From the IMG/VR virus record IMGVR_UViG_3300045988_132576, positions 62,908 through 126,907 of that record: a stretch of DNA of 64,000 bases; one strand, 5' to 3'. How positions within the stretch are numbered: the stretch's first letter is position 1; every line of letters starts with the position of its first letter. A program made the position numbers and the translations under genes. Source of the stretch: a virus. Positions 44,653 through 47,557 of the stretch are shown here, piece after piece. Under the pieces are notes generated by a model, which had not been told where the DNA came from, made no database searches, and saw only the letters and a program-made list of their open reading frames with translations.

Positions 44653-45099
44653 ATGAATACTTATGGTTATCCATAGCAGTAGTATCCAATAGGTAATAAT
44701 AGACCTATTTATGGAACAACTGCTACACCTATGATTCAAAACAGTACTGCATAGCGAATTAGACCCGTTGCTTCTTTAGAAGAGGTTCGAGCTATGAATA
44801 TAGATTTTGATGGTTCAGTTTTTTATTTTCCTGACTATGCTAATCGTAGAATTTATACAAAACAAATAAATATGGATGGAACAGCTTCTATCAATATGTA
44901 TGAATTAAAGGAAATCCCAAATTCTTCTTAGCCTAATAATGACTATATAACACGAGAAGAATTTAATACTACCTTAACTTCTATTAAAGAAGTATTTGCA
45001 TAGATCATGGGATCCAATAACGCGGTTGCGCCATCTCAAGGAACGGATTAGCCAACTCCATAGCAACCAGCAGAGAGCAAACCGCAGTTTAATTTTTAA
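44653..45099 (+). CDS. hypothetical protein (148 aa, 8 TAG), Gln/Pro-rich ends
   Basis: RBS GGAGG. TAA stop. Confidence 0.45.
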
Positions 45100-45111
45100 G
45101 GAGAGCTTCAA

Positions 45112-45360
45112 ATGACACAATCAATGAATCCAATGCAAATTATTGCTATGATTAAAAACGGTCAAAATCCATAGCAATTAGTTTTATCTATGCTTGAAAA
45201 TCAAATGGGCGGAACGCCAATGGGCAATAATTTATTACGAATGGCACGGAACGGTCAATCCGATGACATTGAAAAATTTGCTCGTAATTTGTTTGAATCA
45301 AGAGGGTTGAATTTCGATAAAGAGTTCAATAGTTTTAAGTCCCAAATGGGGTTTAAATAA
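45112..45360 (+). CDS. small hypothetical protein (82 aa)
   Basis: RBS GGAGAG. One TAG. Confidence 0.4.
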
Positions 45361-45386
45361 ATAAAATTATAGAAAGAGGTTTTGTT

Positions 45387-46241
45387 ATGTTTAATTACAA
45401 TTATCCAATGAGCACGCCGAATTATTCATTATCTGATATTGCTGCGGCTTCTGGAAATGGCTATCGTAATAATGATGGCGGAATGTGGGGAGACGGAGCA
45501 TGGTGGATTATTATCCTGTTCTTATTCTGCTTCAATGGTTGGGGCGGTAATGGCTGGGGTAATAATGGTTCTGGTTTCCAAGGCACTACAACCCGAGAAG
45601 AATTGAACTATGGTTTCGATATGAGCGATCTTAAATCTGGGGTTAATGGTTTAGCTTCTAGTCTTTGTAATGGTTTTAGTGGAGTAAATACTAATCTTTT
45701 AAGTGGTTTTGCTAATCTTGCTGAAACTAATAATGCTAATACTCGTACTTTACAGAGCGATATCAGTAATATGGGCATGAATAATATGCAGAATACCTTT
45801 AGTATTACTCAGGCTATTAATGCTGATACTGTAGCAGGTATGCAGAATACTAATAATTTAACTCAACAATTAAGTAATATGGCAGCTACTAATGCTCAAT
45901 GTTGTTGCGAGAATAAACAGTTAATTCAATCTAGCTTTGCTGATCTTAATTACAATCTTGCTAGTATTGCTTGCCAGAATCGTCAGGCTACCGTCGATGG
46001 CGTCCGCGATATTATTGACAACAATAATGCTAATATGCGTTCTATTCTTGACTTCCTTGTTCAAGATAAAATTGAGACTCTTACCAGTGAAAATAGCGCT
46101 CTTAAAAATTAGATTTCTCAAAATCTTCAAAATGCTTATCTTATTGATCAGTTGTCTCCAAAAGCAACTCCTGCTTATATTGTTGCTAATCCTTATACCG
46201 GTATTGGTTATACTAGTTATGGATGCGGTTGCAATTCCTGA
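45387..46241 (+). CDS. membrane-anchored Gly/Trp- and Gln/Asn-rich protein, YjcZ-like N-terminus (284 aa)
   Basis: Track ORF 45387..46112 extended through TAG to a TGA stop. Transmembrane segment WWIIILFLFCF. Gly-Trp-Gly-Asn repeats. Confidence 0.45.
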
Positions 46242-46262
46242 TTGAAGAAAGAAGGTTAAATT

Positions 46263-46685
46263 ATGGAAATAACGGCTAATGCTTTACAATCAGTTGCTAC
46301 TGGTTCTAATGTAGTATTCACTAACACAGCTGTTGCTGGAAACTGTTCCATAATGTATCGCGAGGGTAGCGGTTTAGTTACCCTTCGCGGTCTTACGAAC
46401 GGTCAACGCAGAGCTCGTTTCCGCATTTCATTCGGAGGTAATATAGGAGTTCCGACTACTGGAACTGCGGGTGCTATTTCTTTGGCTATAGCTATTAATG
46501 GAGAGCCAGTTACTACTTCTACAATGATTTCTACTCCTACGGCTACTGGATAGTTTAATAATGTTTCACGTGCTTTATTCCTCGATGTGTTAGGCGGTTG
46601 TTGCACTCAAATTAGTGTTGAAAACACGAGTTCATAGGCTATTGATGTTAAAAACGCCAGCTTAATTATCGAGAGAGTGGCATAA
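46263..46685 (+). CDS. BclA C-terminal-domain-like (TNF/C1q-like) protein (140 aa)
   Basis: C-terminus …NASLIIERVA resembles the BclA exosporium protein C-terminus …SASIIIEKVA. Beta-rich. Two TAG. Confidence 0.45.
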
Positions 46686-46698
46686 GGAGGTTTTTTAA

Positions 46699-47244
46699 AT
46701 GTGTGATAAATTCCAAGAAATTAAAAAGCAATTATTAACTCAAGTAGAAAGTCAAATGGCTCATTTAGAATGTGTTGATACAAAGGAAATGGGCGAAGTA
46801 ATAGATATGATAAAAGACCTTGAAGAGGCTATTTATTATTGTACCATTACTGAAGCTATGAATGAATTACCTGAAACCACACATTATTATACTGAAAAAT
46901 ATAAATCTCCTCATAAAAAAAGAATCTATAAACCTATGACATATGATTATGATTGGGAAGATTATGATTATGATGAACATGAATATGAGATGCCAACGAG
47001 TGGTAAATCTCATGAAACCCATGATAGCAGAGAGGGTCGTAGCGGTGTCCATAGAAAAATGTATATAGAAGCCAAAGAACTTCATAAAGATAAGAACGTT
47101 TAGATAAAAGAGTTAGACAAATATCTTCAAGAATTAAGTTCTGATATAGTAGAAATGATCGAAGATGCTTCTAATGATGAACGCTCTTATATGGAAAAGA
47201 AAATCTAGGCTTTAGCATCTAAAATTGGATCTATGAATGGTTAA
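46699..47244 (+). CDS. acidic hypothetical protein (181 aa, recoded)
   Basis: Track ORF extended through two TAG to a TAA stop. Confidence 0.45.
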
Positions 47245-47557
47245 TATTAATAATAGGAATTGGAGGATACTATTAGTATCTTCCAATCATCCTATGTTAA
47301 TGCGACCTTCTGGAATATATACTTTAGGTTCTTGCGATGATCCTACTTCAACAATTTATATTAATGAAAATATTAGTAATAAAAAATTAAAGAAAGTATT
47401 AGCGCATGAATTAACTCATGCCGCAATTTTTAGTTATGATATTTCATTAAAACCAGAAGAAGAAGAATTAATTGCGGATTTAGTGGGAACTTATGGTGAA
47501 GAAATTATAAATAATACTAATCTTTTATTTAAATAGATAAAAAAAATAAGGGAATGA
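47237..47557 (+). CDS. small HExxH zinc-metallopeptidase-like protein
   Basis: Motif LAHELTHAA. TAG at 47534 is followed by a TGA seven codons later. Confidence 0.45.

What the first reader, a model, noticed from the sequence alone, without database searches (positions are those of the whole stretch)
44653..47557. Six-gene recoded cluster of small proteins with spore/exosporium flavour between the regulator and the replication module
Gene 45387 has a YjcZ-like Trp/Gly-rich membrane anchor followed by a Gln/Asn-rich domain ending …GCGCNS. Gene 46263 ends …NASLIIERVA, strikingly like the BclA exosporium protein C-terminal TNF-like domain (…SASIIIEKVA). Gene 47237 is a minimal HExxH metallopeptidase. 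Gene 44653 has Gln/Pro-rich termini. None of these is expected in a replication or lysis module. Together they look like a host-surface, sporulation or exosporium-interacting accessory cassette. They are bounded by the divergent control region and a bidirectional terminator.
Basis: partly seen in the sequence, partly recalled or inferred. Interest (0 to 1): 0.65.

Follow-up and report, generated by a model that had tools for sequence, protein, structure and literature searches.

The report
Mobile phage cassette with BclA-like protein
The six small genes are real. They are one copy of a widespread, dispensable accessory gene cassette of gut and rumen phages, and one of its proteins does have the fold of the anthrax spore-surface protein BclA, but the cassette also occurs in phages of bacteria that never make spores, so it is not a spore-specific device and its function remains unknown.

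Summary
Positions 44653-47557 hold six co-directional genes (G1-G6). Each has in-frame TAG codons read as Gln. A divergent control region lies upstream and a bidirectional terminator downstream.

G6 is a conserved small HExxH protein with marginal Pfam support. The YjcZ resemblance of G3 is not supported.

The order G1-G2-G3-G4-G5-G6 recurs in 88 fetched loci. It usually lies after the lysis genes, sometimes next to an integrase, sometimes inside a head module. Three near-identical relatives of this ~195 kb phage carry independent clean deletions in it, so it is dispensable.

Hosts include the non-sporulating Butyrivibrio. G3 homologues also occur in Clostridium perfringens phages and in Crassvirales.

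Verdict: an uncharacterised mobile accessory module. My tentative model is a cysteine-rich membrane-anchored coiled-coil stalk (G3) paired with a C1q-like head (G4) that acts at the host envelope. The spore/exosporium reading is not supported as a general function.

The parts
43647..43690 (.). Bidirectional terminator-like hairpin (19-bp stem) between the holin gene (43238-43645) and the regulator gene. It marks the left limit of the regulator-plus-cassette unit.
   Evidence: holin assignment PHROG 13712, E 4.7e-38
43693..44409 (-). Receiver + LytTR DNA-binding regulator (238 aa, 1 in-frame TAG), transcribed divergently from the cassette. It is found next to the cassette only in this phage's close relatives. 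By eye the receiver has Gly at the expected phospho-Asp position.
   Evidence: Pfam Response_reg 1.3e-8 and LytTR 1.4e-3; PHROG 8810 1.3e-25. Matched only in the window and its 97%-identical relative among the 88 loci, and found in the near-identical relatives only.
44410..44652 (.). Divergent AT-rich control region. It holds the direct repeat AAAGTGTCA at 44503-44511 and 44550-44558, promoter-like hexamers on both strands, and a perfect 16-bp leader hairpin (44592-44607 / 44619-44634) just upstream of the G1 ribosome-binding site.
   Evidence: hairpin -18.4 kcal/mol, z -4.2 against shuffles
44653..45099 (+). G1, 148 aa, 7 TAG=Gln. Gln/Pro/Tyr-rich ends flank a conserved central domain. PHROG 21718, function unknown.
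   Evidence: present in 70 of 88 loci; also in C. perfringens phages; no Pfam or PDB match
45112..45360 (+). G2, 82 aa, Asn/Gln-rich, probably helical (judged from sequence; not modelled). This slot is filled by two related subfamilies across loci.
   Evidence: slot filled in 68 of 88 loci; the subfamily-a representative matches PHROG 22984
45387..46241 (+). G3, 284 aa. Acidic N-tail of about 35 aa, then a short hydrophobic helix flanked by Gly/Trp (WWIIILFLFCF...GWGGNGWG), long Asn/Gln-rich helices, invariant CCC, a conserved C-terminal P..PAY..NPY motif and a terminal GCGC. PHROG 16490. It is one of the core genes and the one found in the widest range of phages.
   Evidence: median 11 Cys; invariant columns across Clostridia, C. 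perfringens and crAss-like phages. The AF2 single-sequence model is only helical at pLDDT 45.
46263..46685 (+). G4, 140 aa, a stand-alone all-beta C1q/TNF (BclA-CTD-like) jelly roll with an invariant GCC and many invariant polar residues. PHROG 20016. It is the most conserved gene of the cassette.
   Evidence: (pLDDT 89.3, pTM 0.84; modelled on P0001, 97% identical)
46699..47244 (+). G5, 181 aa. Conserved, probably helical N- and C-terminal segments (judged from sequence) surround a low-complexity Tyr/charged linker (R/G/S/Y-rich in homologues) of variable length.
   Evidence: present in 82 of 88 loci; no Pfam or PDB family
47237..47557 (+). G6, 106 aa, a small HExxH (zincin-like) protein. In other loci this slot holds an unrelated 111-aa protein (c8). 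The stop codon lies inside the terminator stem.
   Evidence: Pfam DUF2268 24.5 bits (cutoff 23.6), M78 20.9 (cutoff 22), SprT-like 18.6 (cutoff 25.6); PHROG 1233 1e-14 and PHROG 87 'metallo-protease' 4e-6; H-E-x-x-H conserved in 24 homologues
47541..47587 (.). Bidirectional terminator-like hairpin (20-bp stem) shared with the convergent minus-strand replication module.

Best explanation
SHOWN.
- The six genes form one late-translated operon; every gene needs TAG read as Gln.
- The operon is a copy of a widespread, mobile and dispensable accessory module of tailed phages from gut and rumen anaerobes.
- G3, G4 and G5 are the most constantly present genes. G3 is a cysteine-rich protein with one hydrophobic helix followed by long helices. 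G4 is a stand-alone C1q/TNF-type jelly roll whose nearest solved relatives are the BclA, F-BclA and ExsFA/BxpB proteins of Bacillus exosporia.
- G1, G2 and G5 are Asn/Gln-rich or low-complexity small proteins that travel with them.
- The last slot holds either a small HExxH protein (G6, as here) or an unrelated 111-aa protein.

INFERRED (the mechanism I think most likely, at low confidence).
- Late in infection G3 inserts into the cytoplasmic membrane through its Gly/Trp-flanked helix.
- It oligomerises through its long helices and is locked by the invariant CCC and terminal GCGC cysteines, through disulfides or a bound metal.
- It then carries or recruits the G4 trimer. The result is a two-piece 'stalk plus C1q-like head': the same design as BclA or C1q, but split into two polypeptides, with a coiled coil in place of collagen.
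- G1, G2 and G5 would be assembly partners, and G6 a processing or regulatory peptidase.
- The assembly would act on the host envelope at or after lysis, in adhesion, exclusion or envelope remodelling. It would not act on spores.
- In this phage the neighbouring LytTR regulator probably drives the operon.
For: Operon and recoding.

G4 fold:
- AF2 pLDDT 89.3.
- Foldseek against PDB: F-BclA CTD E 5e-8 at TM 0.72-0.75, then BxpB, ExsFA and BclA.

Stand-alone family: the listed best 150 of 859 clusters at 50% identity are 83-196 aa.

Conserved synteny across 88 loci: G4 88, G5 82, G3 80, G1 70, G2 slot 68, G6 slot 54.

Mobility of the block:
- after the lysin in Ceridwen;
- between lysin and integrase in Dulem virus 33;
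- after an integrase in Dulem virus 39;
- between the portal/minor capsid and major capsid genes in Dulem virus 35;
- at the prophage end next to host genes in Vescimonas fastidiosa MM35.

Dispensability: three independent clean deletions among about 18 near-identical genomes (window 44349-46955, 44898-47339 and 43848-45466 missing), and more distant relatives in which the holin lies directly next to the replication genes.

G3 architecture and invariant motifs across very distant phages.

Cysteine enrichment: G3 4.3% and G4 3.3%, against 1.7% in neighbouring phage proteins.

Late position: holin, XhlA-like or endolysin genes lie 2-4 kb upstream in most loci.
Against: - No direct evidence that G3 and G4 touch. 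No multimer model could be run.
- The conserved G3 C-terminal motif persists in C. perfringens and crAss-like phages whose next gene is not detectably G4.
- The hydrophobic stretch of G3 is short (about 11-17 residues) and lacks flanking positive charges. Membrane insertion and topology are therefore uncertain.
- None of the other five proteins has a signal peptide (judged by eye from the sequences). An extracellular assembly would therefore need lysis, or a cytoplasm-facing orientation.
- G4 is more conserved than G3 (41-61% against 26-44% identity in the same loci). That is unusual for a host-binding head.
- In C. perfringens phages the G1-G3 genes lie among genes I read as early (an antirepressor upstream, Gam-like and Erf-like recombination genes downstream), not directly after the lysis genes.
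- The only structural model of G3 is unreliable (pLDDT 45).
Confidence: 0.35

Rival explanations
1. Non-essential virion decoration. G4 would be a trimeric cement or decoration protein, or a fibre knob, on the capsid or tail. TNF-like trimers are known in this role: the Helicobacter phage KHP30 cement protein, PRD1 P5 and phage fibre tips. G3 would be a coiled-coil fibre shaft, and the other genes assembly chaperones.
For: - A paper lists the KHP30 cement protein among TNF-like relatives of a phage tail tip (PMC13517437).
- In Dulem virus 35 and a few similar loci the cassette sits between the portal/minor capsid genes and the scaffold/major capsid genes.
- Decoration proteins are typically dispensable, which fits the deletions.
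- All six genes carry TAG codons, as the structural genes do.
Against: - The position is not fixed in a morphogenesis module. It is most often after the lysis genes or at the prophage end.
- The BFVD structural matches carry sipho-, myo- and podovirus-style names, so no one capsid type goes with the cassette.
- G3 has a hydrophobic membrane-type helix.
- The cassette often brings its own small sigma-region-4-like regulator and a Cys-peptidase-like gene. This looks like a self-contained module rather than a virion part.
Confidence: 0.2
2. Lysis-associated envelope effector. G3 would act like an i-spanin or a class I fusion protein (anchor helix, long coiled coils, intermolecular cysteines) to disrupt or fuse envelope layers as the last step of lysis, with the other genes as regulators.
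For: - The cassette lies directly downstream of holin, XhlA-like or endolysin genes in most loci.
- The G3 profile gives weak hits (E 0.02-0.08) to influenza HA2 residues 8-108, the fusion peptide plus long helix.
- Depositors of crAss-like genomes labelled G3 homologues 'spike protein/glycoprotein'.
- Spanins use N-terminal anchors, coiled coils and disulfides (established knowledge of lambda Rz/Rz1).
Against: - The HA2 hits are not significant and are probably compositional.
- Most hosts are monoderm Clostridia, which have no outer membrane to fuse.
- No lipoprotein partner is present in the cassette.
- cr52_1 already has a LysB/FtsL-like gene upstream.
- A lysis role does not explain the conserved TNF-like G4.
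- The deletions show the block is not needed for propagation.
Confidence: 0.15
3. Prophage-expressed conversion or exclusion module (a classical moron). The cassette would be expressed from its own promoter in lysogens and change the host surface or block superinfection.
For: - It has its own control region and flanking terminators.
- It lies at the prophage end, between the lysis genes and an integrase or the host junction: 13 loci have a tyrosine or serine recombinase just downstream.
- Its position among phages varies.
- It is dispensable.
Against: - It is also carried by this ~195 kb recoded phage, in which no integrase is seen in the 64-kb window, and by phages isolated as lytic (Ceridwen and the C. 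perfringens phages).
- In-frame TAG codons tie its translation here to the late, recoded phase.
- No match to any PADLOC defence model.
Confidence: 0.15
4. One reading: a spore, exosporium or sporulation-interacting cassette. G4 would act as a BclA/BxpB mimic and G3 as a YjcZ-like, cysteine-rich coat-type protein, modifying or exploiting host spores.
For: - The nearest solved structures to G4 are all Bacillus exosporium proteins, and its last strand matches BclA in 7 of 10 residues.
- G3 and G4 are cysteine-enriched, as the exosporium lattice proteins are said to be (for the enrichment; ExsY/CotY/CdeC from general knowledge).
- Many carrier genomes are Clostridia, including C. perfringens phages.
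Against: - No profile hit to BclA_C, YjcZ or any spore family.
- There is no collagen stalk and no targeting N-terminus.
- The cassette is present in a phage of non-sporulating Butyrivibrio fibrisolvens, and the G3 core is in Crassvirales.
Confidence: 0.07

Closest known systems
BclA / F-BclA C-terminal domains (Bacillus exosporium nap and endospore-appendage tip; PDB 1wck, 9h38)
   Different: Identity is only 15-17%, and no sequence or profile link is detectable. G4 is a free-standing protein with no collagen-like repeats or N-terminal targeting domain. It is phage-encoded and occurs in phages of non-sporulating hosts. It carries an invariant GCC and many invariant polar residues.
BxpB / ExsFA (stand-alone TNF-like trimer of the exosporium basal layer that anchors BclA; PDB 8d02, 7r1m, 9h3d)
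   Different: No sequence relationship. The genomic setting is a phage cassette, not a sporulation regulon. Partner binding by G4 has not been tested.
C1q / TNF-ligand superfamily heads on fibrous stalks (C1q, collagen VIII NC1, EDA; PRD1 P5, phage fibre knobs)
   Different: In those proteins the head and stalk are one polypeptide. Here the putative stalk (G3) and head (G4) are separate genes, and the stalk is predicted to be a coiled coil with a membrane-type helix.
Phage morons / accessory cassettes at the lysis-integrase junction (for example lambda bor and lom, or toxin genes of Gram-positive prophages)
   Same: It has its own control region and terminators, a variable position among phages, a location at the prophage end, and is dispensable.
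   Different: It is a syntenic block of six to eight genes conserved across very distant phages, not a single gene. It is also present in large phages that appear virulent, and here its translation is tied to late recoding.
i-spanins (lambda Rz) and class I viral fusion proteins (influenza HA2)
   Same: G3 has an N-terminal hydrophobic anchor, long coiled-coil helices and conserved cysteines, and lies close to the lysis genes. Its profile gives weak hits to HA2 (E about 0.02).
   Different: The hits are not significant. There is no lipoprotein partner, and most hosts have no outer membrane. G3 is larger and ends in a unique P..PAY..NPY...GCGC tail.

Membership tests
BclA C-terminal domain (Pfam BclA_C; C1q/TNF superfamily) | All-beta jelly-roll fold superposable on the BclA CTD | tested here: met
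BclA C-terminal domain (Pfam BclA_C; C1q/TNF superfamily) | Significant sequence or profile match to the family | tested here: not met
   No Pfam hit at E<=1. phmmer and a 52-sequence profile against PDB sequences find no BclA. hhalign probability is 0.4% and BLASTP E is 0.75 against the BclA CTD.
BclA C-terminal domain (Pfam BclA_C; C1q/TNF superfamily) | Sits at the C-terminus of a collagen-like (GXX)n stalk with an exosporium-targeting N-terminal domain | tested here: not met
   G4 is 140 aa and the domain fills the whole protein. The 150 best family representatives are 83-196 aa with no long fusions.
BclA C-terminal domain (Pfam BclA_C; C1q/TNF superfamily) | Forms a tight homotrimer | not testable with these tools
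   Only single-chain prediction was available.
BxpB/ExsFA exosporium basal-layer proteins | Stand-alone TNF-like fold of about 150 aa | tested here: met
BxpB/ExsFA exosporium basal-layer proteins | Encoded by, and acting in, a spore-forming host with an exosporium | tested here: not met
   The cassette is in Butyrivibrio phage Ceridwen. The carrier MAGs span many non-Bacillus Clostridia. The G3 core is in Crassvirales.
YjcZ / tiny-TM sporulation protein family (for G3) | Profile match, and a small size of about 30-50 aa made of a Gly-rich segment plus one hydrophobic helix | tested here: not met
   No NCBIfam or Pfam hit at E<=1, and none among 42 homologues. G3 is 284 aa, and only the composition around residues 30-65 resembles the family.
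Zincin metallopeptidases (DUF2268 / ImmA-IrrE M78 / SprT-like) for G6 | Conserved HExxH motif | tested here: met
   AHELTHA in G6; H-E-x-x-H conserved in 24 homologues
Zincin metallopeptidases (DUF2268 / ImmA-IrrE M78 / SprT-like) for G6 | Score above the curated family cutoff | tested here: inconclusive
   DUF2268 scores 24.5 against a cutoff of 23.6 but covers only profile positions 24-80 of 195. M78 scores 20.9 (cutoff 22) and SprT-like 18.6 (cutoff 25.6). PHROG 87 'metallo-protease' 3.9e-6.
Phage moron / mobile accessory cassette | Own promoter region and terminator; different positions in different phages; dispensable | tested here: met
   Terminators and divergent region; four different genomic contexts; three natural deletions and cassette-free relatives
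Phage moron / mobile accessory cassette | Expressed independently of the lytic programme (in the lysogen) | not testable with these tools
   No expression data. In this phage the in-frame TAG codons argue for late translation.
Spanins (i-spanin/o-spanin) for G3 | N-terminal anchor plus periplasmic coiled coil, paired with an outer-membrane lipoprotein partner, in a diderm host | tested here: not met
   No lipobox-bearing gene in the cassette (sequences). Most hosts are monoderm Clostridia. Only the anchor, coiled-coil and cysteine architecture is shared.
Known anti-phage defence systems (PADLOC) | Match to a defence-system protein model | tested here: not met
   No hit better than E 0.016 for nine cassette proteins

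The most novel reading that the evidence does not exclude
The cassette encodes a self-assembling, cysteine-cross-linked surface structure built on the same principle as the Bacillus exosporium nap (a fibrous stalk plus a BclA/ExsF-type C1q-like trimer), but invented or borrowed by phages. It would be deployed on the envelope of infected or lysogenic cells, or on released virions, in both Bacillota and Bacteroidota. That would make it a previously unrecognised, widespread phage-encoded surface organelle. It could also mean that exosporium BclA-type proteins and this phage family share ancestry.
Probability: 0.12. Interest if true: 0.8.

Novelty: new variant of a known kind. Interest (0 to 1): 0.5.

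Why it matters
Five of the six protein families have no Pfam family and only 'unknown function' PHROGs, yet the block is very common:
- G4 alone has at least 8000 homologues at 90% clustering and 859 clusters at 50%.
- The block keeps its gene order across very distant phages.
- It moves as a unit, and homing endonucleases have inserted into it.
- Its G3 core crosses from Bacillota phages to Crassvirales.

A conserved, dispensable, late-expressed module on this scale probably encodes a general phage-host interaction function that nobody has studied.

The finding gives experimenters concrete handles. Isolated carrier phages exist (Ceridwen and six C. perfringens phages), as does a cultured lysogen (Vescimonas fastidiosa MM35). 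It also adds a large phage-borne branch to the C1q/TNF/BclA fold family.

It does not support a phage-spore link.

Tried and rejected
- Sequence and profile searches of all six proteins against Pfam, NCBIfam, PHROGs and PADLOC, and of G1, G3, G4 and G5 against PDB sequences (G2 and G6 were not searched against PDB). Nothing informative came back except weak zincin hits for G6 and unknown-function PHROGs.
- Scanning every member of the G1, G3, G5 and c5 alignments against Pfam gave nothing.
- Profile searches of those four alignments and of G4 against PDB sequences gave only HA2 noise for G3 and an RG-rich LSm4 tail for G5.
- A second and a third homologue search, meant to widen the G4 alignment, returned only two densely sampled clades. 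The alignment was still good enough for a confident model.
G4 was therefore modelled through P0001 (97% identical). G3 could be submitted only as its TAG-free first 241 residues without an alignment; the result is unreliable (pLDDT 45) and was used only as 'helical'.
- The AFDB50 fold library was not available.
- The gene that follows G3 in crAss-like and C. perfringens phages was tested as a G4 relative. hhalign found nothing and Pfam found nothing, including DUF3992/Ena.
- I first thought G5 was CotC-like and tyrosine-rich. Family-wide Tyr is only 6.1% against a 4.8% background, so I dropped the idea.
- I looked for LytTR-type 9-bp repeats at 21-bp spacing in the control region. The only exact direct repeat is spaced 47 bp, so no claim is made.
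- Literature searches for a described phage BclA/BxpB-like cassette found nothing specific.
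Full report
1. WHAT IS THERE

The window comes from a low-GC (about 30%) phage that reads TAG as an amino acid. Stop-to-stop ORFs of at least 100 aa cover 61% of the window under the standard bacterial code and 96% when TAG is sense.

With TAG = Gln, the + strand up to 43645 carries long late and structural genes. These include ORFs of 2752 and 2582 aa and end with a holin (PHROG 13712, E 5e-38). 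The minus strand from 47592 onward carries replication and nucleotide-metabolism genes that are nearly free of TAG.

Relatives fetched through the neighbouring dUTPase gene show that the whole genome is about 195 kb.

Each contains in-frame TAG codons (7, 1, 1, 2, 2 and 1). In non-recoded homologues the columns under these TAGs hold Gln more often than anything else (32% pooled, up to 37 of 47 at conserved columns), so the Gln reading is right.

The block has clear boundaries:
- Bidirectional terminator-like hairpins lie at 43647-43690 and 47541-47587.
- A receiver+LytTR regulator gene (43693-44409, minus strand) is transcribed away from it.
- A 243-nt AT-rich control region separates that regulator from G1. 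It ends in a stable leader hairpin just before the G1 ribosome-binding site (-18.4 kcal/mol, z -4.2).

2. THE INDIVIDUAL PROTEINS

G4 (140 aa). No sequence method links it to anything named (Pfam, NCBIfam, PDB phmmer, a 52-sequence profile against PDB).
- An AlphaFold2 model is confident (pLDDT 89.3, pTM 0.84) and all-beta.
- Foldseek against the PDB puts the Bacillus exosporium proteins first: F-BclA CTD 9h38 (E 5e-8, TM 0.72-0.75), BxpB 8d02, ExsFA 7r1m/9h3d and BclA CTD 1wck. TNF ligands and C1q follow.
BclA does end SASIIIEKVA, a 7/10 match. Over the whole length, however, BLASTP and hhalign see nothing, and the margin over generic C1q/TNF domains is small.
- G4 is a free-standing domain. 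The best 150 representatives of the family are 83-196 aa, with no collagen fusions.
- It has an invariant GCC and an unusual number of invariant polar residues (H32, R33, R52, N60, E81, N100, N121, N131, R138).
- In the viral structure library its best matches are stand-alone 130-142-aa proteins of uncultured gut phages. One of these, and one further down the list, had already been auto-named 'BclA protein'.

G3 (284 aa).
- It has an acidic N-tail, then a short hydrophobic helix flanked by Gly/Trp, then long Asn/Gln-rich helices. It carries an invariant CCC, a conserved C-terminal P..PAY..NPY motif and a terminal GCGC.
- Homologues have a median of 11 cysteines.
- No YjcZ or other family model matches it or 42 of its homologues.
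- Its profile gives only sub-significant hits to influenza HA2 residues 8-108 (E about 0.02-0.08). I regard these as compositional.
- The single-sequence AF2 model is unreliable (pLDDT 45) and says only 'helical'.

G6. It carries a conserved HExxH. Pfam DUF2268 is just above its cutoff (24.5 against 23.6) over part of the profile. M78 and SprT-like fall below theirs. PHROG 87 'metallo-protease' scores 4e-6.

G1, G2 and G5. They match nothing known. G1 and G2 are Asn/Gln-rich (17-28% against 10% in the background). G5 has conserved end segments around a low-complexity linker of variable length.

3. THE CASSETTE ELSEWHERE

G4 has at least 8000 homologues at 90% clustering and 859 clusters at 50%.

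I fetched 80 loci from species-representative genomes and 7 from annotated phage records. I then clustered all ORFs in them. The same order recurs:
- G1: 70 of 88 loci
- G2 slot: 68
- G3: 80
- G4: 88
- G5: 82
- Last slot: 54, holding either the HExxH protein (24) or an unrelated 111-aa protein 'c8' (30)

Many non-recoded loci add two genes upstream:
- a small sigma-region-4-like HTH protein;
- a 129-aa protein ('c5') with an invariant Asp-Cys...His...Asp pattern typical of papain-like peptidases (PHROG 3754).

The block moves as a unit:
- after the lysin in Butyrivibrio phage Ceridwen;
- between the lysin and the integrase in Dulem virus 33;
- after an integrase in Dulem virus 39;
- between the portal/minor capsid genes and the scaffold/major capsid genes in Dulem virus 35 and a few others;
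- at the very end of a prophage, between holin-amidase and host genes, in the cultured Vescimonas fastidiosa MM35.

HNH homing endonucleases have inserted inside it in Ceridwen and Dulem virus 33.

4. IT IS DISPENSABLE

Eighteen of the loci fetched through the dUTPase gene are close relatives (83-98% identity in that gene, mostly 96-98%). Three of them carry different clean deletions within the block:
- window 44349-46955 is missing in L099;
- window 44898-47339 is missing in L100;
- window 43848-45466 is missing in L109.

More distant relatives (L111, L112) have the holin directly beside the replication genes, with no cassette.

Unless these contigs are assembly artefacts, the cassette is not needed for propagation.

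5. HOST RANGE ARGUES AGAINST A SPORE-SPECIFIC ROLE

- Carriers are mostly Clostridia MAGs (Oscillospiraceae, Acutalibacteraceae, Lachnospiraceae, Ruminococcus).
- They also include a phage isolated on Butyrivibrio fibrisolvens (non-sporulating by its classical description, my own knowledge) and MAGs labelled Subdoligranulum.
- G3, together with G1 and G2, is in six isolated C. perfringens phages.
- G3 is also in several Crassvirales genomes (cr116_1, cr1_1, cr52_1, cr53_1, cr115_1), where depositors called it 'spike protein/glycoprotein'.
- In cr52_1 the order is a sigma-like gene, then G3, then a ~144-aa beta-rich gene and a ~189-aa gene, which echoes the cassette.
- The gene after G3 in those phages is not detectably G4.
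- The known hosts of Crassvirales are Bacteroidota (my own knowledge), which do not sporulate.

6. WHAT IT MOST LIKELY DOES

Shown: the block is a mobile, dispensable, late-translated accessory module. Its most constantly present genes are a cysteine-rich protein with one hydrophobic helix and long helices (G3), a stand-alone C1q/TNF/BclA-type jelly roll (G4), and G5.

Inferred: the design resembles the stalk-plus-trimeric-head architecture of BclA, C1q and many viral fibres, split into two genes and with a coiled coil instead of collagen. My best guess (about 35%) is that G3 anchors in the cytoplasmic membrane, oligomerises and is cross-linked through CCC/GCGC. It would then carry or recruit the G4 trimer. 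G1, G2 and G5 would be assembly partners and G6 a processing or regulatory peptidase. The assembly would act at the host envelope around the time of lysis.

Weak points of this model:
- There is no evidence of G3-G4 contact.
- The hydrophobic helix is short and has no flanking positive charges.
- None of the other proteins has a signal peptide.
- G4 is more conserved than G3.
- The G3 tail motif persists where G4 is absent.

Rivals:
- a non-essential virion decoration or fibre (about 20%);
- a lysis-associated spanin-like or fusion-like effector (about 15%);
- a lysogen-expressed conversion or exclusion module (about 15%);

7. COMPARISON WITH KNOWN SYSTEMS, AND NOVELTY

G4 is a new, very large, phage-borne branch of the C1q/TNF fold class. 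It is closest in structure to BclA-type exosporium domains. It fails the other defining features of BclA: profile match, collagen stalk, targeting domain and spore context.

G6 is a probable zincin. G3 is not a YjcZ protein.

As a system, the cassette behaves like a moron, but it is a conserved multi-gene block with no characterised counterpart. Automated pipelines have already put the labels 'BclA protein' and 'spike protein/glycoprotein' on homologues. No paper found here describes the cassette.

I rate it a new variant of a known kind, of moderate interest. Its function is open, and it can be studied experimentally in isolated phages and a cultured lysogen.

Noticed in passing
window 1-64000: TAG use is strongly asymmetric. 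Late and structural genes on the + strand carry many in-frame TAGs (80 in the 2752-aa ORF, 26 in the 2582-aa ORF). Most minus-strand replication and nucleotide genes carry 0-3, and the first five + strand genes (5-3234) carry none. No tRNA gene, suppressor or otherwise, lies in the window.
   Followed up: partly
window 43693-44409 (-): The phage-encoded receiver+LytTR regulator seems to have Gly where the phospho-accepting Asp should be (YDAIFLGITF...MDG, judged by eye against the Pfam match, which starts at profile position 41). That would make it a phosphorylation-independent pseudo-receiver. Next to the cassette it is found only in this phage's close relatives.
   Followed up: partly
window 44592-44634: A perfect 16-bp inverted repeat forms a stable leader hairpin (-18.4 kcal/mol, z -4.2) immediately upstream of the G1 ribosome-binding site. 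It could be an attenuator, operator or stability element. The direct repeat AAAGTGTCA also occurs at 44503 and 44550.
   Followed up: partly
L099, L100, L109 (IMG/VR contigs; window 43848-47339 equivalents): Three independent deletions remove different parts of the regulator and cassette in otherwise ~92-96% identical genomes. The junctions have at most 2 nt of microhomology. I could not check whether they are real variants or assembly artefacts.
   Followed up: partly
L001 7512-8306; L002 5413-5964; L122 6409-6987: HNH homing endonuclease genes are inserted inside the cassette in Ceridwen and Dulem virus 33, and directly after it in crAss-like cr52_1.
   Followed up: no
L119 4884-5780, L122 4290-5213 (Crassvirales); L120 5974-6609, L121 5710-6327 (C. 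perfringens phages): G3 homologues with the same invariant WGG, CCC, PAY..NPY and terminal GC.C motifs occur in crAss-like phages (annotated 'spike protein/glycoprotein') and in isolated C. perfringens phages. They are followed by a Cys-containing beta-rich ~125-145-aa protein that is not detectably G4.
   Followed up: partly
L122 5705-6271: The annotated CDS after the G4-slot gene of cr52_1 has 7 in-frame stop codons under code 11, so this crAss-like genome appears to be stop-codon recoded as well.
   Followed up: no
many loci, e.g. L029 1960-2346, L043 655-873: In non-recoded phages the cassette is usually preceded by two genes that are absent from this window. One is a 129-aa protein with an invariant D-C...H...D pattern (papain-like peptidase signature, PHROG 3754, no Pfam family). 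The other is a 73-82-aa sigma-region-4-like HTH protein.
   Followed up: partly
window 47535-47557: The last TAG of G6 (codon 100) lies 7 codons before the TGA stop, which is itself inside the terminator stem. Whether G6 ends at 99 or 106 residues depends on TAG read-through.
   Followed up: no
L117 (ENA scaffold, 380007 bp): One contig that carries the same phage region is 380 kb, about twice the ~195 kb of the other assemblies. It may be a concatemer or a mis-assembly.
   Followed up: no
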